From an uncultured virus (IMG/VR IMGVR_UViG_3300005460_000001) (lineage: Duplodnaviria; Heunggongvirae; Uroviricota; Caudoviricetes), in IMG/VR virus record IMGVR_UViG_3300005460_000001, positions 62,001-126,000 of that record: DNA of 64,000 bases, one strand, 5' to 3'. Below the pieces are notes generated by a model. The model saw nothing but the letters and a program-made list of their open reading frames with translations. It ran no database searches and had not been told where the DNA came from. This document shows positions 3,246-38,764 of this stretch, piece after piece. A program made the position numbers and the translations under genes. Every line of letters starts with the position of its first letter. Position 1 is the stretch's first letter.

Positions 3246-5351
3246 TTATTTATCTTTTGACGGAGCAAGCAGTATTTCTTCTTCTTCATCTATATACATC
3301 ATACCCTTTATCATTTCATCTTCTTCTGGAGAAAGTTTCACCTTGCGAGATTCCATATTCATAAATTCCTGTGGTCTAGGCATGAAATATAAATCGGTCT
3401 GTGAAGGAGCGGTTTTGGTATATGACAAAGGATTATACAGTGTCTTACTAATTTTCTGATATTCTAAGCTTACTGTTATAGATGGATGCTTTTTCAAAGC
3501 AGTATCGAGGTTAACCAATGCATACTCTGCATTTTCATCGGTCCAATCCGGATTTTCAAGAACTTTATCGTCATCAAGACCTAATCTAATTTGATTAGCT
3601 ATAATAACTTCCAGATGAACTGCAGAAACAGAAAGATTGCCATTTATTACTGCATTTACAAATTCTTGAATAATAATGTCTTTAGTCATTCCATTTACTT
3701 TTGGAAGTTTGCTAATAACCTCTTTAACCTTGTTAAGAGTATCGCTAAGTTCATTATTAGCAATATGAACAAGGAAAAGATCTGTGTCTATTAGCTTCTC
3801 CATGTCTATCATATAGTTTCCTTCTGTTGGCTCAGGCATAGACTTAACCAAATCAGAAAGCTCCTGTGAAAGCATTAGTTCATCATTACTCTTTAGATAA
3901 ATCTGAGTAACCTTTCCTTTTGGGCTTATCACGTTGAACCATCTTACAGTTTCCTCTTCTTCTTCATCAAAATCCATACATGCAGTATCTATTTCTAGAG
4001 TCCATTTCTTACAATCGAAATCATCTTTTATATGAATGGCGTTATAACTCACATCAAATATATCAGAAAATTCATCACACCAATCGAGATTTTTGATATT
4101 AGATTCCAGCAAATGCTTAGCGGATAAGAGCATTTGTGTTAACTCTGATGATAGTATCTCCGCTGCTATGGTACCGATATTTATATCGTAATTTGTATAT
4201 GCTAGGTCGCCATAGCATCTATAACAAATTCCTTCCCCTCTTGCATGAGACGCACAAGTACATGGGCTCCTAAACAATACAGTTTGCCCTATCAGATGTT
4301 TATCGGTACGATAATTTATTTTCATTTCTGGTCCATCGGCTCTAAAACGATAATACCGATTATTATACATCTTTAATACTTTTTCGTTATATATAGTAAT
4401 CTTTATGAAGTTCTTTGTGCCGCATGAATAATTAGGATTTGAGTGAAGATTCGTATCCCTGTTGTTTAATCCAAGTATTCTAGCAAAAGCCCCAGACGTT
4501 CCTACATTTTTCTTAGAGATAATTAAAGCCTGTCTTCCTTTACCGGATTCTGGAAGTATATCAGATAACGTACTGAGCCCTTTGTTTATGAAACTAGAAT
4601 TTATTATATGGGGGTAAGCACCGCCATCCCCATCTGGAACTGTACCAATATTAATGGCAAACTCTCTAAATTGCTTAGGATTGATGCCTTCTCCCACAGC
4701 AAATGAGTTCCCCAGACAATGTTCAGAATTCTTCATGATATTAATGGCTTTATTGGTTATGGCCATTCCCACATTCTTCACATCTTCTATTGGAGTTTTT
4801 GATAGGTCTGCGTGAACACAATCATAAAATTCTTGGTTCACATTCATTAACTCTATAGTATCCTCATCATTGATGGTGTTGCAAAGATATAATGAAAATT
4901 CATCAATGTATCTAAGTTTATACAGAGTATCGTCTATAATATTACATAATTTTTTATTTGATATCCTAGATCTGTTTTTATTTAAAAACTTGGTATCAAT
5001 ATATTCTTTAATACGATGCTTATTAAACACGTCGTCAAAGAATAAATAATATGATGTAATTTGCTCATCTGTTTTTGCCGGCATCGTCCACATCATAAGA
5101 TTAAGCATATAATCAAATATTGATAAGGTTACATCCACATTATCGGCAAACATTATATTTATTGCCATATGCTGTACATAATCCGTTTCTATTCCATCTC
5201 TAAGAATATTTAGTATAGAATAGAAATGAGAGTCAATGTTGTCCTTATTAATATCCTTTGTAAAGATTTGGATATTTCCATTTTTAACCAAAGGAACATA
5301 GACCCCATAGTTCTTAAAGTTTTGTAAATTTGATCCGTATAGTGCCTCCAT
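3246..5351 (-). CDS. multisubunit RNA polymerase beta' subunit, C-terminal part (non-virion RNAP type)
   Basis: Zn site CTC...ICYRCYG, bridge-helix-like GRQALIISKKNVGTSGAFAR, trigger-loop-like LTQMLLSAKH; split beta' as in phiKZ/AR9. Confidence 0.85.
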   Translation of the reverse strand: MEALYGSNLQNFKNYGVYVPLVKNGNIQIFTKDINKDNIDSHFYSILNILRDGIETDYVQHMAINIMFADNVDVTLSIFDYMLNLMMWTMPAKTDEQITSYYLFFDDVFNKHRIKEYIDTKFLNKNRSRISNKKLCNIIDDTLYKLRYIDEFSLYLCNTINDEDTIELMNVNQEFYDCVHADLSKTPIEDVKNVGMAITNKAINIMKNSEHCLGNSFAVGEGINPKQFREFAINIGTVPDGDGGAYPHIINSSFINKGLSTLSDILPESGKGRQALIISKKNVGTSGAFARILGLNNRDTNLHSNPNYSCGTKNFIKITIYNEKVLKMYNNRYYRFRADGPEMKINYRTDKHLIGQTVLFRSPCTCASHARGEGICYRCYGDLAYTNYDINIGTIAAEILSSELTQMLLSAKHLLESNIKNLDWCDEFSDIFDVSYNAIHIKDDFDCKKWTLEIDTACMDFDEEEEETVRWFNVISPKGKVTQIYLKSNDELMLSQELSDLVKSMPEPTEGNYMIDMEKLIDTDLFLVHIANNELSDTLNKVKEVISKLPKVNGMTKDIIIQEFVNAVINGNLSVSAVHLEVIIANQIRLGLDDDKVLENPDWTDENAEYALVNLDTALKKHPSITVSLEYQKISKTLYNPLSYTKTAPSQTDLYFMPRPQEFMNMESRKVKLSPEEDEMIKGMMYIDEEEEILLAPSKDK

Positions 5352-33468: not shown

Positions 33469-36400
33469 ATGATACGAGGAATGTACTATGGAGACATAAG
33501 TAAACCTCCACGTGTAGATGAATGGGTACCAACCAAAGATGACATCATTTTTAGAAGTTGCAAAGGATTCATGCTACTACCAGTAGCAGAATATTATAAT
33601 TTAGATGATACTAATCTGAATGCCTTTTCGCTTTCTATGAAACGATGTTATAACGGTAATATCATGCGTGAACACATGCCGAGATATTTAAATTACTTCA
33701 TAAAATATTACGATACAGATAAAGAATTACTATTAGCTTATTATAAACTTAAATTTGTATTGGACTATTATGGAGATTCGTATGGCGTTGACGCATTCAT
33801 CATGGATCTTAAAAGGTATGTATTAACTCCGTCATTAATAACAAAAGCAGCTGTGATGAACGAAGATAACTATCTTTTAGATCTTGATGACAGAAATTAC
33901 CGTAACGACAAAAACCCAGCGCTACAATACGAGGACAGACACGCTAAACTTTTAATGTGGATGAGTCTATTGATGAATATGGTAATACCATTATCGACTC
34001 ATTTTGCATTTATAAGTAATGTAGAAGACGTTGACCAATTTCTTCTTAAAGTGTTTGAGTCCATAATGGAGTTAACAAATGTCGATATTGAAGCAAAACT
34101 ATATGAGACTTCTAATTCTAATATTGTAAGAAATAGAAAATCTCATCAGGTATTATGGGATATACAGGATATTCGTTCTAAGAATACCACTACAGTATCT
34201 ATGGATGGATTGATTAATATCATTCTTAATATAATGCCGAAATATACATATGATAAAAATATCATATCGTTAGATTTCAGCAGCATCAAGAATACAATTC
34301 ATTTCCAAGTGCTAGGTATCAAATACGAATATACCTATGTTCCCCTAAGTAACAGCAAAAGAGACGAGGATGGAATGCGTGTCCCTCATACTAGTAATAG
34401 TGTGATGAAAACCCTTTTTAGCTCGATAAGAGCATTGCTGGAAAAGGCTAAGAGCTCAGTCGCTACAGCATAATCTGAAAATGATAAGTGCGATAGTCAT
34501 CGAAAGATAGAAAAAAGTACTGAGATGATATATGGTGAAATAAAAGCTGTGTAAGAATTCGGAAACTTACATGGTCCTAAGTATCGTTAACAATGTTTAC
34601 CCAGCAGCGAAGACTTAATATAATATATTGAGTAACGTTCAACGACTATTTTACGTAGCACCAAGAGGCATGGTTGGTAATCGTCGCCGTAATCCCATTT
34701 AATGCGAAAAAGAGGGTATCCTGATATCATTATCAGGTAGTGATATAGTCTCGGCATATAGGTAACACCTATAGAAGTTCATAAGAGAACTGCATCGATG
34801 TAGCGAATCGGTGTGAAGAATCCGCAAAATTCAGAGTTCGATTCAGCCAGGGTCGCCTAGTATAGGAATATACTATGGAAACACTTTTCAAATTTAGGAT
34901 TAGTCTGGGACGGGCTTACCTTATCTGACTAAACGGGTAGGTTCAATCAGCAGCAAGTTTATCAATTTATAGCCCTTTTATAAGGGGGTGAAAACATGGT
35001 AATGCCAAGCCAAGAGCAAGCTATATATCCAGAAATATGGATAAGACTATATTTGTATATTTATGGATTGCAACAGCATTATATAATCAGTAACTATGGA
35101 AGAATTTTTAATGAGAAAACAGCAACCTTTTTACCAAAGAATCAAAGTATAGATTATGACTATACTACTATTAGATTGACATTTATTGATGGTCATGCCG
35201 AATGTTTCCTGTTACACAGGTTAATTGCATACGTGTTTGTTCCGAATTCTACCGGAGATTACACCTTGGAAGTAAACCATAAAGACGGGATTAAGGGCCA
35301 CTCGTGGGCATGGAATTTAGAATGGATAGATACAAGAGGGAATATGATTCATACAATAAATCATAATCTAGTAGCATTAGGAGAAAGCAGAAGCAACTCA
35401 AAGCTTACAAATTCTCAAGTAATTAGAATATGCGAACTCATTGAGAGTGGGAAAACGAATGCCGAAATTATAAATGCTATCGGAACTGATTTACGTAAAG
35501 GAGATTTGCAAAATATAAGAAATGGACATTGCTGGAGCCATATATCCAAAAATTATGATTTCAGTAATGCTGCAACCAAATCGAAATTTACAGCAGAACA
35601 AATCCATACTATATGTAAATATTTTCAGAATCATGGAACTAAGAAATCATATAGAGAAGTATTAGTTCATTTAGGTATAGATGTAACAAAGTTATCTTCA
35701 AATGAAATGGATAATTATAATGCGGCAATTGGATTGATAAGAGATAAGAAATCATATAAAAATATTTGTAATCTGTATGATTATGATAATGCTATAAATT
35801 GATTTACTGTTCAACGACTATCGAAAGCTATAAATCTATTAAATTAGGTTGAAAATAAGGTACTTTAGTTGTGTTAAAGTAGACGAAGCGAGTAGAGTAG
35901 AGCCAAGCGGTATGGTAGGAGTAACTCACCGTAATACCATTTAAATCGAAAAGTCAAGCATCCCAATATCTTAACAGATAATGGATGGTGATATAGTCTC
36001 CACTTATGGGTAACACCCATAGAAGTTCATAAGAGAACTGCATCGATGTAGCGAATCGGTGTGAAGACTGGCGTTATGAAAGTTTCATCGTAAAGCAAAA
36101 CGAATCACTTTACCTGCAGAATAAGTGTAATCGTGAGCAAACGATGAGAGAAATTGAAATTCGCTATGGGCCGTTTGACCCAAAAGAGATAGAGTATTAT
36201 ATAGAACGTCTCGAAGAAAATGGCGGGGATTCAATAGTAAATAGCTTTCAAAAGAAATTGATCTTTAATCTCTTCTTTAAGTATTTTGGAGACCCAATCT
36301 CCATAAAAGATATTAATAAGATAGACTATGTAAAATTAATGTTGGCAGCCTCGCGCGAGCTGCTAACTAATGGTATGGTTATATTACCATATATTATAAG

Positions 36401-36665
36401 TAGCAACATAACAAAGTTTCAGCAGAGAAAATCTCTTAACAAGAAAGAATCATTGAAGTTGGAAAGCTGTCCTTTATATAATCATGTCAAGAACAAATAC
36501 AAATCAGACAAGGTTGATAAAGAAATACTACAAATGATTGCTACAATTATATCTTCCGAATTTCAAATCATAGCATATAATAATCCAGAGTTAGATAGAA
36601 AGATAATATCTAATGTCCCGGATTCAATATGTGAAGAGATTTGTATGTTCGTGTCACTTATTTAA
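33469..36665 (+). CDS. sigma-like promoter-specificity subunit of nvRNAP (AR9 gp226 / phiKZ gp68-like), join(33469..34371,34825..34842,36072..36665), ~504 aa
   Basis: in-frame join ...SKRDED|QNSEFD|RYESFIVKQNE...; segments (FSLSMKRCY, YLLDLD..LQ, IMPK..NIIS, KY..Y.PL, EEICMFVSLI) resemble AR9 gp226 as I recall it. Confidence 0.7.
34372..34824 (+). mobile_element. group I intron 1 (no ORF)
   Basis: exon ends in U pairing with IGS GUCCCUC; core motifs TTGCTGGAAA, CAGCAGCGAAG, GTTCAACGACTA, GATATAGTCT; terminal G. Confidence 0.85.
34843..36071 (+). mobile_element. group I intron 2 carrying an HNH homing endonuclease
   Basis: exon CGAU pairs with GUCG; AATCAGCAGCAAG, GTTCAACGACTA, GATATAGTCT; terminal G restores the frame. 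Confidence 0.85.
34996..35802 (+). CDS. HNH homing endonuclease (NUMOD4/HNH type), intron-encoded
   Basis: ISNYGRI, LHRLIAYVF, VNHKDG..N..NLEW..N..H; repeated C-terminal DNA-binding-like segments. Confidence 0.85.
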   Translation: MVMPSQEQAIYPEIWIRLYLYIYGLQQHYIISNYGRIFNEKTATFLPKNQSIDYDYTTIRLTFIDGHAECFLLHRLIAYVFVPNSTGDYTLEVNHKDGIKGHSWAWNLEWIDTRGNMIHTINHNLVALGESRSNSKLTNSQVIRICELIESGKTNAEIINAIGTDLRKGDLQNIRNGHCWSHISKNYDFSNAATKSKFTAEQIHTICKYFQNHGTKKSYREVLVHLGIDVTKLSSNEMDNYNAAIGLIRDKKSYKNICNLYDYDNAIN

Positions 36666-36723
36666 ATCATCTAGGGGGGGGGGGTAACTCCTTCCCTCCT
36701 TATTTTTTACATTGGAGGAAAGT

Positions 36724-37452
36724 ATGGATTACTTTAAGTTATTTGCTATTGCATTTAGTTGCGCATCTTTTATGCTTTCTATGTATGCGTATTTAAGATT
36801 TCGCAGTATTGAAAAGGGGATATGCAATAAATCATCAGAGAGAAAAAGAAAAAAGAAAAGTAAGAATAAGAAAAATCGAGAAATCACTTTAATAGCTGCA
36901 GTAGATAAATATTGGGGTATAAGCCGGGATGGAAAAATACCATGGTATTTACCAGAAGATCTAAAACACTTTAGAGAAATCACTGAAAACGGTATTGTTA
37001 TAATGGGAAGAAAGACATTTGAAACAATAGGGCAGCCTTTAAAAAACAGAGTAAATATTATTATCTCGGGTAAATATGGTTCTGATAAAAATTCAGTAGA
37101 TTTTAATTATGAAGATTTTAATGTTAACTGGCTATATGGAGAAGAATACGAAACCTATGTAGTAGCTTCTATCAAAGGAGCAATGGAAATAACTAAATTT
37201 TACAAAGGTAAACCTATATTCATCATAGGCGGAAAAACTATATATAATCAATTCTTGCCATATTGTAGTAAGGCTATAATTACTAAACTAGAAGAAGATT
37301 TTAAATGTGATAATTTTATGCCAAATTTAGACTCACGAACGTTTGATTGGGAATTAGAAGACGAAGAAAGTTTTCGCTCCGTATCTAATCCTCAACAGCA
37401 TAGATTCTTATATTTATACTACAAAAATAATGAACAGGAGGAAAATAAATAA
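36724..37452 (+). CDS. folA: dihydrofolate reductase with N-terminal TM and basic extension
   Basis: LIAAVD..GIS..GKIPW.LPEDLKHFR, VIMGRKTFE, PLKNRVNII, FIIGG..IY. Confidence 0.85.
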   Translation: MDYFKLFAIAFSCASFMLSMYAYLRFRSIEKGICNKSSERKRKKKSKNKKNREITLIAAVDKYWGISRDGKIPWYLPEDLKHFREITENGIVIMGRKTFETIGQPLKNRVNIIISGKYGSDKNSVDFNYEDFNVNWLYGEEYETYVVASIKGAMEITKFYKGKPIFIIGGKTIYNQFLPYCSKAIITKLEEDFKCDNFMPNLDSRTFDWELEDEESFRSVSNPQQHRFLYLYYKNNEQEENK

Positions 37453-37455
37453 TGA
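37422..37455 (+). repeat. 34-bp direct repeat, copy 1
   Basis: caaaaataatgaacaggaggaaaataaataatga. Confidence 0.9.
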
Positions 37456-37913
37456 ATATAATTAAGAGCATATTTAAAATATGTCTATACTGTACCTTAT
37501 TGGTTATCATTACAGCATTTGTAATTCCATCTATCGATAACCTTATCCCAATTATTAAAGAAGCATATACATCTGATATAAAATTCTCTCATGTAATTTT
37601 AGCAGCATGGTGCTTAGCATTAATAATTATTACTATCGTCTTAGTACTTTATTTTAGTTTTTTAATTTTATTAAGTATTATAGATATAGTAATTTGCAAT
37701 GATGATGTATTAAATATTGTAAAATCTTGGAAATCTTCTTTTAATAAAGGTGATACTGGTCCTGTGGGGCCGATGGGACCTAGAGGGAAATCCATATATG
37801 AAATTTGGTTAGAATTCGATGGGAATGAAGGCAAGACCGAAGAAGAGTTTATGGACGATATGGCTAAAAGAATGGCAAATTTCAAAAATAATGAACAGGA
37901 GGAAAATAAATAA
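37452..37913 (+). CDS. membrane protein with short collagen-like segment
   Basis: 2 TM, GDTGPVGPMGPRG, GKSIYEIW...GKTEEEF motif. Confidence 0.7.
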   Translation: MNIIKSIFKICLYCTLLVIITAFVIPSIDNLIPIIKEAYTSDIKFSHVILAAWCLALIIITIVLVLYFSFLILLSIIDIVICNDDVLNIVKSWKSSFNKGDTGPVGPMGPRGKSIYEIWLEFDGNEGKTEEEFMDDMAKRMANFKNNEQEENK

Positions 37914-37916
37914 TGA
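37883..37916 (+). repeat. 34-bp direct repeat, copy 2
   Basis: identical to 37422-37455. Confidence 0.9.
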
Positions 37917-38764
37917 GTTATGCTGATAAAATTTTTAAGGATACTTGCTATGACATATTATATGGGTGCGGCACAGATACGCAAGGGGAAAAAGTAAGAC
38001 CGCATTGGGAAGATGGAACCCCGGCGTATACTGTTAAGAAATTTGGAGTTGTAAATGAATACAATTTACAGACTGAGTTCCCAGCATTAACAATAAGAAG
38101 AGTTCCGCTAAAGAGTTGCGTAGATGAATTGTTATGGATTTGGCAAAAAAAATCAAACAATGTAAAAGATCTCAAAAGCCACATATGGGATTCGTGGGCA
38201 GATGAAAGCGGTTCGATAGGTAAAGCATATGGATATCAATTAGGAGTAAAGCATAATTACAAAGAAGGCGAAATGGATCAAGTAGATCGGGTGTTATACG
38301 ATTTAAAACATAATCCATATAGTCGAAGAATCATGACCAATATCTATAATCATCATGATTTAAATGAGATGAATTTATATCCGTGTGCATATTCTATGAC
38401 ATTTAATATAACTAAGGATAACGATGATGGGAAGCTGGTGCTTAATGGAATTCTTAATCAAAGGTCCCAAGATATGATAGTTGCTAACGGATGGAATGTT
38501 TGTCAATATGCGGTATTAATTCATATGCTTGCTCAGGTTAGTAATATGAAACCCGGAAAGTTTATACATGTAATCGCTGATGCCCACATATATGATAGGC
38601 ATGTTCCAATTGCAGAGGAATTACTTAAACGAGAAGAGTATCCTGCTCCGAGGTTTTGGTTAAATCCAGAGATTAAAAATTTCTATGATTTCACTACAGA
38701 TGATGTGCTGCTTTCTGGGTATCAGCATTGTGAGCAGATTACGGATATTCCAGTAGCAGTATAG
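37913..38764 (+). CDS. thyA: thymidylate synthase
   Basis: ELLW, IWDSWAD, YGYQ, SRR, LYPC, QRSQD..A..WN, DAHIY. Confidence 0.92.
   Translation: MSYADKIFKDTCYDILYGCGTDTQGEKVRPHWEDGTPAYTVKKFGVVNEYNLQTEFPALTIRRVPLKSCVDELLWIWQKKSNNVKDLKSHIWDSWADESGSIGKAYGYQLGVKHNYKEGEMDQVDRVLYDLKHNPYSRRIMTNIYNHHDLNEMNLYPCAYSMTFNITKDNDDGKLVLNGILNQRSQDMIVANGWNVCQYAVLIHMLAQVSNMKPGKFIHVIADAHIYDRHVPIAEELLKREEYPAPRFWLNPEIKNFYDFTTDDVLLSGYQHCEQITDIPVAV

What the first reader, a model, noticed from the sequence alone, without database searches (positions are those of the whole stretch)
33469..36665. Sigma-like nvRNAP subunit split by two group I introns around an 18-nt micro-exon
ORFs 33469 and 36144 appear to be one gene. 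Exon 1 ends ...GAGGAU (34371); intron 1 is 34372-34824; the micro-exon is CAAAATTCAGAGTTCGAT (QNSEFD, 34825-34842); intron 2 is 34843-36071 with an HNH ORF; exon 3 starts CGTTATGAA. Both 5' sites show U-G P1 pairing, both introns end in G, and the frame is preserved. Introns in jumbo-phage RNAP core genes are known, but I am not aware of tandem introns in the promoter-specificity subunit. Late transcription would depend on two splicing events, and skipping the micro-exon would stay in frame.
Basis: partly seen in the sequence, partly recalled or inferred. Interest (0 to 1): 0.75.

Follow-up and report, generated by a model that had tools for sequence, protein, structure and literature searches.

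The report
Two introns split phage sigma-like gene
A giant phage's gene for the sigma-like subunit of its own RNA polymerase is cut by two related self-splicing (group I) introns that leave only an 18-base exon between them; the arrangement is real, but it is a new example of a known kind of phage gene structure.

Summary
Exon 1 (33469-34371), an 18-nt micro-exon (34825-34842) and exon 3 (36072-36665) join into a 504-aa protein. It runs collinear, with no gap, with uninterrupted 505-506-aa homologs across the junction. A profile of those homologs matches the AR9 nvRNAP chain of 7S01/7UM0 (gp226) at E 3.9e-18.

Both intervening sequences belong to one group I intron family, which I also found in the same gene of related metagenomic jumbo phages:
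- all 19 introns analysed have a P1 helix of at least 4 bp with U·G at the 5' splice site, and their guide sequences co-vary with the exon;
- all carry the R and S core elements, and P2, P3 and P9-P9.2 show compensatory changes;
- all end in G.

Rfam's own model scores both introns below threshold. No spliced RNA junction was seen, so splicing is inferred.

Intron 2 carries an HNH homing endonuclease gene in its P6 loop. Intron 1 has no ORF. The two introns resemble each other most only in their last ~80 nt.

The gene's domain linker, which forms the sigma-finger-like element in AR9, is an intron hotspot. Relatives carry introns at at least nine sites and up to five per gene.

Tandem group I introns with tiny exons are already known. 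This scan also noted similar cases before on other DNA, in jumbo-phage RNAP beta and beta' genes. Interest is moderate.

The parts
33469..34371 (+). Exon 1 of the gp226-like gene (301 codons; N-terminal domain plus the start of the linker); ends ...GAT with U at -1
   Evidence: ORF and sequence. 347 homologs at E<=1e-3. PHROG 25005 'RNA polymerase' at E 2.7e-13. Boundary enumeration.
34372..34824 (+). Intron 1: 453-nt ORF-less group I intron. Guide sequence GUCC at 34381-34384 pairs with exon GGAU. R element at 34637-34648, S element at 34742-34750, terminal G at 34824.
   Evidence: P1. R and S elements. P3 ACCCUU/GAGGGU. The MFE fold recovers P2, P3, P4, P6, P8, P9, P9.1 and P9.2, with z -2.88 and 0 of 100 shuffles as stable. 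Rfam RF00028 gives 21.0 bits, E 0.016, below gathering. Model R1 gives 99.2 bits.
34825..34842 (+). 18-nt micro-exon encoding QNSEFD. It is the 3' exon of intron 1 and the 5' exon of intron 2; its last four bases, CGAU, form P1 of intron 2.
   Evidence: Continuity with uninterrupted homologs. Top of 1,079 candidate hexapeptides. Boundary enumeration.
34843..36071 (+). Intron 2: 1229-nt group I intron. Guide sequence GUCG at 34852-34855. R element at 35809-35820, S element at 35990-35998, terminal G at 36071.
   Evidence: P1. P3 ACUUUU/AAAAGU. The MFE fold recovers P2, a 4-bp P4, P5, a long-range P6 closing the ORF, P8 and P9-P9.2. Rfam gives 16.1 bits, E 0.48. Model R1 gives 98.1 bits.
34996..35802 (+). 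HNH homing-endonuclease ORF (268 aa) in the P6 loop of intron 2. Its last codons and stop codon lie in the 3' strand of P6, and its Shine-Dalgarno sequence lies in a hairpin.
   Evidence: PHROG 59 at E 1.3e-24 and PHROG 959 at E 6.5e-22. Pfam gives only a weak NUMOD4 match. Closest ORFs are those in introns at the same site in relatives, 40-44% identity. Fold.
36072..36665 (+). Exon 3 (197 codons plus stop; rest of the linker and the C-terminal domain). The listed ORF 36144-36665 is its part downstream of an internal ATG.
   Evidence: Profile match of 301-505 of the family at E 2.7e-94.

Best explanation
The region is one gene for the fifth, sigma-like, promoter-specificity subunit of the phage's non-virion multisubunit RNA polymerase (AR9 gp226 family). 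Two side-by-side group I introns of one family interrupt it.

The proposed mechanism is as follows.
- The gene is transcribed as one pre-mRNA.
- Each intron folds into its own ribozyme core (P3-P8, P4-P6, P7 with the guanosine site).
- Each binds the last four bases of its upstream exon through a 4-bp P1 helix ending in U·G: GGAU with GUCC for intron 1, CGAU with GUCG for intron 2.
- Each is cut there by an external guanosine, and the exons are ligated behind the intron's terminal G.
- Two independent splicing events give exon 1 + 18-nt micro-exon + exon 3, a 504-aa protein.

The micro-exon encodes six conserved residues of the linker between the N- and C-terminal domains. In AR9 this linker becomes the sigma-finger-like element.

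Intron 2 carries an HNH homing endonuclease in its P6 loop. That enzyme is expected to cut intron-less alleles near the site and spread the intron by repair. Intron 1 has no ORF and sits 18 nt away, so it can be carried along by co-conversion.

Shown here: the gene identity, exon continuity, RNA family membership, co-varying helices, and the endonuclease family. Inferred: actual self-splicing, homing, co-conversion, and that the phage's late transcription needs both splicing events.
For: Gene identity:
- The family profile hits 7s01_A at E 3.9e-18 over 37-497 against 16-456.
- Foldseek gives 7um0_A at 8.4e-14, 7s01_A at 1.5e-13 and phiKZ 8que_B at 7e-4.
- The window also encodes an RNAP beta-like protein, GroEL and a primase around the gene, as in phiR1-37.
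- No second copy lies in the 129-kb record.

Continuity:
- Uninterrupted homologs read R-D-x-D, then [N/Q]-N-S-x-[F/L]-D, then [K/R]-Y-E-S, with no gap against the spliced product.
- Intron-less DNA alleles L073 and L074 confirm this.
- Unbiased boundary enumeration agrees.

Intron family:
- Every gap examined in the 15 distinct interrupted IMG/VR genes (plus duplicate L017) holds the R and S core elements.
- 19 of 19 introns have a P1 of at least 4 bp with U·G, at intron positions 8-13, in five exon/guide pair types.
- P9, P9.1 and P9.2: 10 of 16 predicted pairs show compensatory changes across 16 tails.
- P2: 6 of 6 pairs show compensatory changes.
- P3: 16 of 19 introns have a perfect 6-bp partner, against 5.2 expected from permuted strands, and both window introns are among the 16.
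- The MFE folds recover the canonical order of helices.
- A covariance model built from 14 relatives only finds exactly two hits in the window, at 99.2 and 98.1 bits. The next hit scores 14.5 bits.

Endonuclease: PHROG HNH families match. The closest ORFs lie in introns at the same site in L029, L031/32, L037 and L038.
Against: - No spliced junction was observed; the runs laid were contigs and showed no joints.
- Rfam RF00028 scores both introns below its gathering score (21.0 and 16.1 against 50). Neither appears at E<=1 when the whole window is searched.
- Each intron has one oddity against the family pattern. Intron 1 has a 15-nt hairpin inserted between P3 and P4. Intron 2's P4 has only 4 standard pairs (CUGG/UCAG), where relatives have about 6-7.
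- Pfam finds no HNH domain in the ORF, only a weak NUMOD4 match.
- The structural model is of a homolog, not of the window's own spliced protein.
Confidence: 0.85

Rival explanations
1. Exon skipping is the main or a regulated outcome. Because the two introns share an almost identical 3' module, the 5' splice site of intron 1 is joined to the 3' splice site of intron 2. This gives a 498-aa protein that lacks the six linker residues.
For: - Skipping stays in frame.
- The 3' tails are 89% identical and are each other's closest match among 18 other introns, while the 5' and core parts rank only 12th-15th.
- Exon skipping between tandem group I introns is reported for phage SIOphi and for Twort orf142 (passages of PMC11878797).
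Against: - The micro-exon keeps the family consensus, including the invariant D and the nearly invariant N and S. That would not be maintained if it were never used.
- Every uninterrupted homolog has these six residues.
- Nothing here measures splice-product ratios.
Confidence: 0.1
2. The gene is broken: one or both introns no longer splice, and the locus is a decaying pseudogene or an assembly artefact.
For: - No RNA junction was seen.
- Intron 2 has a weak P4, and intron 1 has an insertion between P3 and P4.
- A variant in run X3 has a 26-nt deletion inside the HNH ORF.
Against: - All three exons are intact and in frame, and conserved at 70-98% with homologs.
- The same arrangement is assembled in other runs and contigs.
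- The 129-kb record holds no other copy of this subunit gene.
- Core elements and helices are intact.
Confidence: 0.04
3. The gene is split at the protein level. The 334-aa ORF and the 173-aa ORF are translated separately and assemble non-covalently, as the split beta and beta' subunits of jumbo-phage polymerases do. The intervening DNA would be only a mobile insertion.
For: - Both ORFs have start codons.
- The break lies in a flexible linker between two independently folding domains.
Against: - The micro-exon and the 24 conserved codons at 36072-36143 upstream of the internal ATG would be lost, although they hold invariant family residues.
- The 334-aa ORF ends in 33 residues of intron read-through.
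- The intervening sequences have complete group I architecture with guide sequences matched to the exons.
Confidence: 0.02

Closest known systems
AR9 gp226 (PDB 7S01/7UM0/7UM1 chain A), promoter-specificity subunit of the AR9 non-virion RNA polymerase; phiR1-37 g245
   Same: It is homologous in sequence and fold. It has the same two-domain-plus-linker layout: NTD 1-264, linker, CTD 295-464 in AR9, and a low-confidence segment 266-322 in the model of the homolog. It sits in a similar neighbourhood of GroEL and primase.
   Different: The phiR1-37 gene is one uninterrupted CDS. The solved AR9 chain is one 464-aa sequence; its gene record was not examined. Identity to AR9 gp226 is low (22-23% in Foldseek), so function is inferred. 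This phage also encodes thymidylate synthase and DHFR next to the gene, whereas AR9 recognises deoxyuridine promoters.
Tandem group I introns in phage genes: Twort orf142 (three introns, exon skipping) and Bastillevirinae (phiNIT1 reductase with a small exon between two introns; SIOphi exon skipping)
   Same: Several group I introns lie in one phage gene with short internal exons, so the splice sites could be used interchangeably (passages of PMC11878797). The Twort paper itself was not held.
   Different: Those genes are for DNA metabolism, packaging or the tail. Here the target is the sigma-like transcription subunit, the exon is only 18 nt, and splicing has not been shown.
PhiPA3 gp210 intron (HNH endonuclease in a group I intron of a virion RNAP subunit gene); AR9 g189 intron holding g190; phiKZ predicted introns
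   Same: These are HNH-carrying introns in jumbo-phage RNA polymerase genes, inserted at conserved codons.
   Different: Each is a single intron in a beta or beta'-like subunit. For PhiPA3 the endonuclease's role in phage competition was shown experimentally. Nothing of that kind is tested here.
Phage subgroup IA2 introns such as T4 td with I-TevI (recalled, not tested)
   Same: The endonuclease ORF is looped out of P6. Extra hairpins lie between P7 and the 3' strand of P3. The R and S core sequences are similar.
   Different: Subgroup assignment was not tested with subgroup models. The endonuclease here is HNH, not GIY-YIG.

Membership tests
Group I intron (self-splicing ribozyme) | P1 helix between the end of the 5' exon and an internal guide sequence, with U·G at the splice site | tested here: met
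   Intron 1 pairs GGAU with GUCC; intron 2 pairs CGAU with GUCG. 19 of 19 family introns have at least 4 bp, in five co-varying pair types.
Group I intron (self-splicing ribozyme) | Terminal guanosine at the 3' end of the intron | tested here: met
   G at 34824 and at 36071. The best boundary set found without this rule has G at both positions.
Group I intron (self-splicing ribozyme) | Conserved core: R and S elements forming P7 (guanosine-binding site), plus P3, P8 and the P4-P6 domain in canonical order | tested here: met
   R and S are each exact, twice, in the window. P3 has 6 of 6 pairs in both introns. P4, P6 and P8 are recovered by the MFE folds. Caveat: intron 2's P4 has only 4 standard pairs.
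Group I intron (self-splicing ribozyme) | Score at or above the gathering threshold of Rfam RF00028 | tested here: not met
   21.0 and 16.1 bits against 50. There are no hits at gathering or at E<=1 on the whole window. The Rfam alignment misplaces the P3 and P4-P6 strands, taking the long P5 extension for flanking sequence.
Group I intron (self-splicing ribozyme) | Spliced exon junctions in RNA, or self-splicing in vitro | tested here: inconclusive
   Contigs of four runs, one of them a true metatranscriptome, show no joints. Contigs cannot exclude spliced RNA.
AR9 gp226-like nvRNAP promoter-specificity subunit | Sequence and fold homology to gp226 over both domains | tested here: met
   Profile E 3.9e-18. 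Foldseek E 8.4e-14 and 1.5e-13 with a model of a 71%-identical homolog.
AR9 gp226-like nvRNAP promoter-specificity subunit | Encoded in a phage with its own multisubunit RNA polymerase | tested here: met
   An RNAP beta-like ORF lies at 3246-5351 (PHROG 3015, E 5e-49).
AR9 gp226-like nvRNAP promoter-specificity subunit | Confers promoter-specific initiation on the core enzyme | not testable with these tools
   Known for AR9 only (passages of PMC7598289 and PMC9209446).
HNH homing endonuclease | HNH nuclease domain | tested here: met
   PHROG 59, 959, 1492 and 17657 are all 'HNH endonuclease', best E 1.3e-24. Pfam lists only NUMOD4 at E 0.025.
HNH homing endonuclease | Cleaves the intron-less allele at or near the insertion site | not testable with these tools
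   Intron-less alleles exist (L073, L074).
Twintron (intron within an intron) | One intron interrupts the other, with no exon between them | tested here: not met
   The two lie side by side with a conserved coding 18-mer between them. Each has its own complete set of P1-P9 elements.

The most novel reading that the evidence does not exclude
The sigma-finger linker of the gp226 family is a battleground. One intron family repeatedly re-targets itself to new sites a few codons apart by small changes in its guide sequence. Support for this: L076 has two introns 83% identical along their whole length but with different guide sequences, and L060 has five introns in one gene. In the window's phage the two neighbours have exchanged their 3' modules, so their splice sites are interchangeable. 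The choice between full splicing and micro-exon skipping would then give two sigma-like isoforms whose finger differs by six residues, which would tune initiation at late promoters.
Probability: 0.1. Interest if true: 0.7.

Novelty: new member of a known kind. Interest (0 to 1): 0.42.

Why it matters
The subunit that gives a jumbo phage's own RNA polymerase its promoter specificity can only be made here after two ribozyme reactions. This extends the known targets of phage group I introns from DNA-metabolism, packaging and polymerase core genes to the sigma-like factor.

The wider result may be more useful than the single case. In metagenomic relatives, one intron family occupies at least nine sites clustered in the conserved linker that forms the sigma finger. 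Its guide sequences are matched to each site. Endonuclease-bearing and endonuclease-free copies sit side by side, and up to five occur in one gene. That is a natural data set for asking how group I introns move to new sites and how neighbouring introns recombine.

There is also a practical point. Rfam's model misses this family, and gene callers split the gene: 80 of the 120 best database homologs are truncated, 76 of them in this stretch.

Tried and rejected
- **Rfam.** The gathering search of the window gave nothing. The E-value search of the region gave only sub-threshold group I hits, and the E-value search of the whole window gave none at E<=1.
- **RNA evidence.** One search for runs and one lay of X7, X6, X3 and X2 gave no joints and no junction evidence either way. 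The contig covering the intron-1 core has a higher depth figure than the exon contigs (X7: 15.8 against 2-4; X3: 57.5 against 4-9). The tool warns that contig depth cannot rank parts of a gene, and shared intron sequence from other phages could explain the difference, so I make nothing of it.
- **Phage collection.** megablast found only a 47-nt match in a Staphylococcus jumbo phage intron. tblastn with exon 3 found nothing.
- **P3 tests.** A free search for the longest helix was uninformative: cross-pairings between different introns scored almost as well (mean best helix 5.8 bp against 6.5 for own pairs). An anchor-based version failed for four introns because the anchor fell inside the helix. 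The permutation version is the one I use.
- **Larger covariance model.** I used a shorter tail model instead.
- **Ambiguous boundaries.** The boundaries of four further introns (L015a, L016a, L057, L060e) were ambiguous, so I left them out of the counts. Duplicate loci L017, L031, L062 and L063 were left out too.
- **L076.** My attempt to join the L076 exons in frame printed no solution.
- **L072 record.** The 231-kb record behind L072 is not held for whole-record search.
- **Papers.** The AR9 genome paper and the Twort intron paper were not held.
- **Twintron reading.** Considered and rejected; see the membership test.
Full report
**1. What is in the sequence**

ORF 33469-34473 and ORF 36144-36665 lie on the + strand 1.7 kb apart, with ORF 34996-35802 between them.
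- exon 1 ends GAGGAT at 34371;
- 34372-34824 ends in G;
- the 18-mer 34825-34842 reads QNSEFD and ends in T;
- 34843-36071 ends in G;
- 36072 starts CGTTATGAA.

Joining the three exons by coordinates gives an open 504-codon frame. Leaving the 18-mer out gives 498 codons.

**2. Is it one gene, and are the boundaries right?**

Exon 1 has 347 database homologs at E<=1e-3. Ten of the sixteen homologs I read in full are 505-506 aa and about 70% identical. Across the junction they read R-D-x-D, then [N/Q]-N-S-x-[F/L]-D, then [K/R]-Y-E-S, with no length difference from the spliced product. The closest homolog that spans the junction (P0002, 77% identical) differs from the window in one of the 16 residues around it.

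Two further tests agree:
- I enumerated all four boundaries within +/-9 nt with no splice-site rule and scored the joined peptide against six uninterrupted homologs.
- Scored against the family's six alignment columns, the micro-exon is first of 1,079 stop-free hexapeptides in all three frames of the intervening 1.7 kb, at 22.3 against 11.6 for the runner-up.

Two intron-less DNA alleles from metagenomes (L073, L074; about 70% identical DNA) show the uninterrupted sequence. At the second site their codon is GAC, where the intron-bearing allele has GAT.

**3. What the gene is**

Pfam finds nothing in the exons. PHROG 25005 'RNA polymerase' matches exon 1 at E 2.7e-13. The only phage-collection match is phiR1-37 g245 'RNA polymerase', with which the spliced product is collinear over 428 columns (E 2e-29).

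A profile of 21 full-length homologs (A1) hits one set of solved chains: the 464-aa chain A of 7S01/7UM0/7UM1, at E 3.9e-18 over nearly its full length. An AlphaFold model of the first member has Foldseek top hits 7um0_A (8.4e-14), 7s01_A (1.5e-13) and then the phiKZ nvRNAP chain 8que_B (7e-4).

The passages I read call this chain gp226. It is the fifth subunit of the AR9 non-virion polymerase. [quoted passage not shown]

The window also encodes an RNAP beta-like protein, DNA polymerase, helicase, terminase, major head protein, GroEL and primase. GroEL and primase flank the homologous gene in phiR1-37 as well. The 129-kb record that holds the window contains only the two exon pieces and no second copy. 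That record is about half a genome.

**4. What the intervening sequences are**

Rfam is nearly blind to them. There is nothing at gathering score. When only the region is searched, RF00028 gives 21.0 bits (34532-34774) and 16.1 bits (35795-36022) against a threshold of 50. Nothing appears at E<=1 when the whole window is searched. The evidence that they are group I introns is therefore comparative.

A scan of IMG/VR with the family profile gave 65 loci:
- 44 hold an uninterrupted gene;
- 19 are interrupted (15 distinct after removing duplicates);
- 2 are unclear.

Every gap examined holds the group I R element (GTTCAACGACTA or a near variant), followed 40-240 nt later by the S element (GATATAGTC). 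These two elements together form P7.

I fixed the boundaries of 17 of these introns by exon continuity. In most, the best-scoring junction, or one tied with it, has T before the intron and G at its end. I analysed them together with the two window introns, 19 in all. Four introns with ambiguous boundaries and four duplicate loci were dropped.

- **P1.** In 19 of 19, the last 4-8 exon bases pair with a guide sequence starting at intron position 8-13, with U·G at the splice site. Five exon/guide types occur: GGAU/GUCC, CGAU/GUCG, GAAU/GUUC, GUGAU/GUCAC and UGCCU/GGGCA. The guide therefore co-varies with the insertion site.
- **P2.** 6 of 6 predicted pairs show compensatory changes (19 sequences).
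- **P9, P9.1, P9.2.** 10 of 16 predicted pairs show compensatory changes. This used 16 of the 19 tails; three with deviant tail lengths were left out.
- **P3.** 16 of 19 have a perfect 6-bp partner just upstream of P8, against 5.2 expected from permuted 5' strands. The window introns have ACCCUU/GAGGGU and ACUUUU/AAAAGU.

The minimum-energy fold of intron 1 alone recovers P2, P3, P4 (UUGCUG/CAGCAG), a long P5 extension, P6, P8, P9, P9.1 and P9.2 in the canonical order. Its energy is -118.6 kcal/mol, with z -2.88 and 0 of 100 shuffles as stable. The fold of intron 2 recovers P2, P4, a 9-10-bp P5, a long-range P6 that closes the ORF, P8 and P9-P9.2.

A covariance model built only from 14 relatives' 3' parts (A5, R1) finds exactly two strong hits in the window: 34709-34827 (99.2 bits, E 7.6e-22) and 35957-36075 (98.1 bits, E 1.5e-21). 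The next hit scores 14.5 bits.

Two deviations should be stated. Intron 1 has a 15-nt hairpin between P3 and P4 where relatives have three bases. Intron 2's P4 has only four standard pairs.

**5. The endonuclease and the relation between the two introns**

The 268-aa ORF of intron 2 matches four PHROG 'HNH endonuclease' families (best E 1.3e-24). Pfam reports only a weak NUMOD4 match.

The ORF sits in the P6 loop. Its last codons and stop codon are part of the 3' strand of P6, and its Shine-Dalgarno sequence lies in a small hairpin. Its closest relatives among the loci are the ORFs of introns inserted at the same codon in L029, L031/32, L037 and L038 (40-44% identity). ORFs at other sites are 22-36% identical. 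That pattern fits a site-specific homing lineage.

Intron 1 has no ORF. The two window introns are each other's best match only in the last ~80 nt: 89% identity, rank 1 of 18. In the first 75 nt and in the R-to-S core each is closer to introns of other phages, and the partner ranks only 12th-15th (94% ungapped over 80 nt). So they are not a simple tandem duplication. Their 3' modules have been exchanged or homogenised.

**6. The wider pattern: an intron hotspot in the sigma-finger linker**

In relatives the same intron family sits at at least nine sites, given here in the numbering of homolog P0005:
- after D158;
- after P259;
- after about D285;
- after E288;
- after N305;
- after D309, which is the window's second site (L016, L029, L032, L033, L037, L038);
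- after D319;
- and others.

The window's first site, after D303, appears only as truncated database proteins: P0001, 8, 9, 16, 24, 30, 58, and by their tails P0018 and P0028.

Several genes hold more than one intron:
- L015 and L016 have two, with internal exons of about 39 and 63 nt.
- L060 has five, with internal exons of 72 and 60 nt.
- L076 has two that are 83% identical over their whole length but have different guide sequences.

All 26 hits of model R1 on 79 loci lie inside this gene and none in the ~4-kb flanks.

Of the 120 best database homologs, 40 reach the C-terminus and 80 stop early, 76 of them between positions 283 and 315. Some may be cut by contig ends.

This stretch lies within the segment (266-322) that AlphaFold cannot place (pLDDT <50) between two confident domains. 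By my count on the alignment, the micro-exon corresponds roughly to gp226 residues 278-283, inside the AR9 linker 265-294. The alignment is weak there, so this mapping is approximate.

**7. RNA evidence**

I found one true metatranscriptome run and several uncertain ones that hold part of the region. I laid four of them. All are contigs. No joints were reported, so there is no evidence for or against splicing. The lay does show the unspliced DNA form with both introns in other data: an X2 contig bridges 34380-34876.

**8. Comparison with what is known, and novelty**

Group I introns with HNH genes in jumbo-phage polymerase genes are known: PhiPA3 gp210, the AR9 g189/g190 pair, and predictions in phiKZ (passages). 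Several introns in one phage gene, small internal exons and exon skipping are also known: Bastillevirinae, and Twort as cited there.

Earlier notes of this scan, which I did not check, describe tandem group I introns around 13-, 18- and 20-nt exons in jumbo-phage RNAP beta and beta' genes. Gut jumbo phages with many group I introns have been described too.

My three literature searches for introns in gp226- or gp68-type genes returned no paper that describes one; I read only passages or listings of the papers found. So the kind is known, and what appears new is the target gene and the hotspot in its linker. Supplements were not consulted and could hold relevant annotations.

**9. Verdict**

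The best explanation is two functional, related group I introns flanking a real 18-nt exon in the sigma-like nvRNAP subunit gene (confidence 0.85). Splicing, homing and any regulatory use are still to be shown. Interest is moderate (0.42).

Noticed in passing
window 35036 (run X3): A contig of run X3 lacks 26 nt inside the HNH ORF of intron 2. That would shift the frame: a population variant with a decayed endonuclease gene but otherwise identical sequence.
   Followed up: no
window 34412-34753: Contigs covering the core of intron 1 carry higher depth figures than exon contigs in two runs (X7: 15.8 against 2-4; X3: 57.5 against 4-9, with adapter letters at both ends of the X3 piece). This could be stable excised intron RNA or sequence shared with other phages. 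Contig depth cannot decide.
   Followed up: no
window 34501-34548; L002 3001-3047: A 47-nt stretch of intron 1's P5 extension is 93.8% identical to unannotated DNA in Staphylococcus jumbo phage vB_StaM_PB50. That DNA lies between two pieces annotated 'viral RNA polymerase beta subunit', beside a homing endonuclease gene, so it is probably a related intron in another polymerase gene. A 13-kb contig in run X2 shares the same short stretch.
   Followed up: partly
window 36712-38764: Dihydrofolate reductase and thymidylate synthase genes lie directly downstream of the gp226-like gene. AR9's gp226 recognises deoxyuridine in the template strand. A phage that makes dTMP may recognise different promoters.
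   Followed up: no
window 36674-36684: A run of 11 G lies nine bases after the stop codon of the gene. Run X2's variant differs at several positions around it.
   Followed up: no
L060 149-5013: A relative on a 185-kb viral contig carries five introns of this family in the one gene, three of them back to back, with internal exons of 72 and 60 nt.
   Followed up: partly
L076 4831-5466: A distant relative (about 30% protein identity, 272-kb contig) has two ~275-nt ORF-less introns that are 83% identical along their whole length. They have different guide sequences (GCCAC and GCCG) and lie about 85 nt apart, which looks like a recent move to a second site.
   Followed up: partly
P0002 (412 aa homolog): The 77%-identical homolog is uninterrupted at the window's two sites but diverges after about residue 352 (…EIDYY) into unrelated sequence. 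This is a possible further interruption or a frameshift.
   Followed up: no
L032 4147-4150: The tblastn match to this relative breaks and overlaps at residue 65, suggesting a frameshift or sequencing error in exon 1.
   Followed up: no
window 34976-34998: The Shine-Dalgarno sequence of the intron-encoded HNH ORF is paired in a short hairpin in the predicted fold of intron 2. This is a possible brake on its translation from the unspliced RNA.
   Followed up: no
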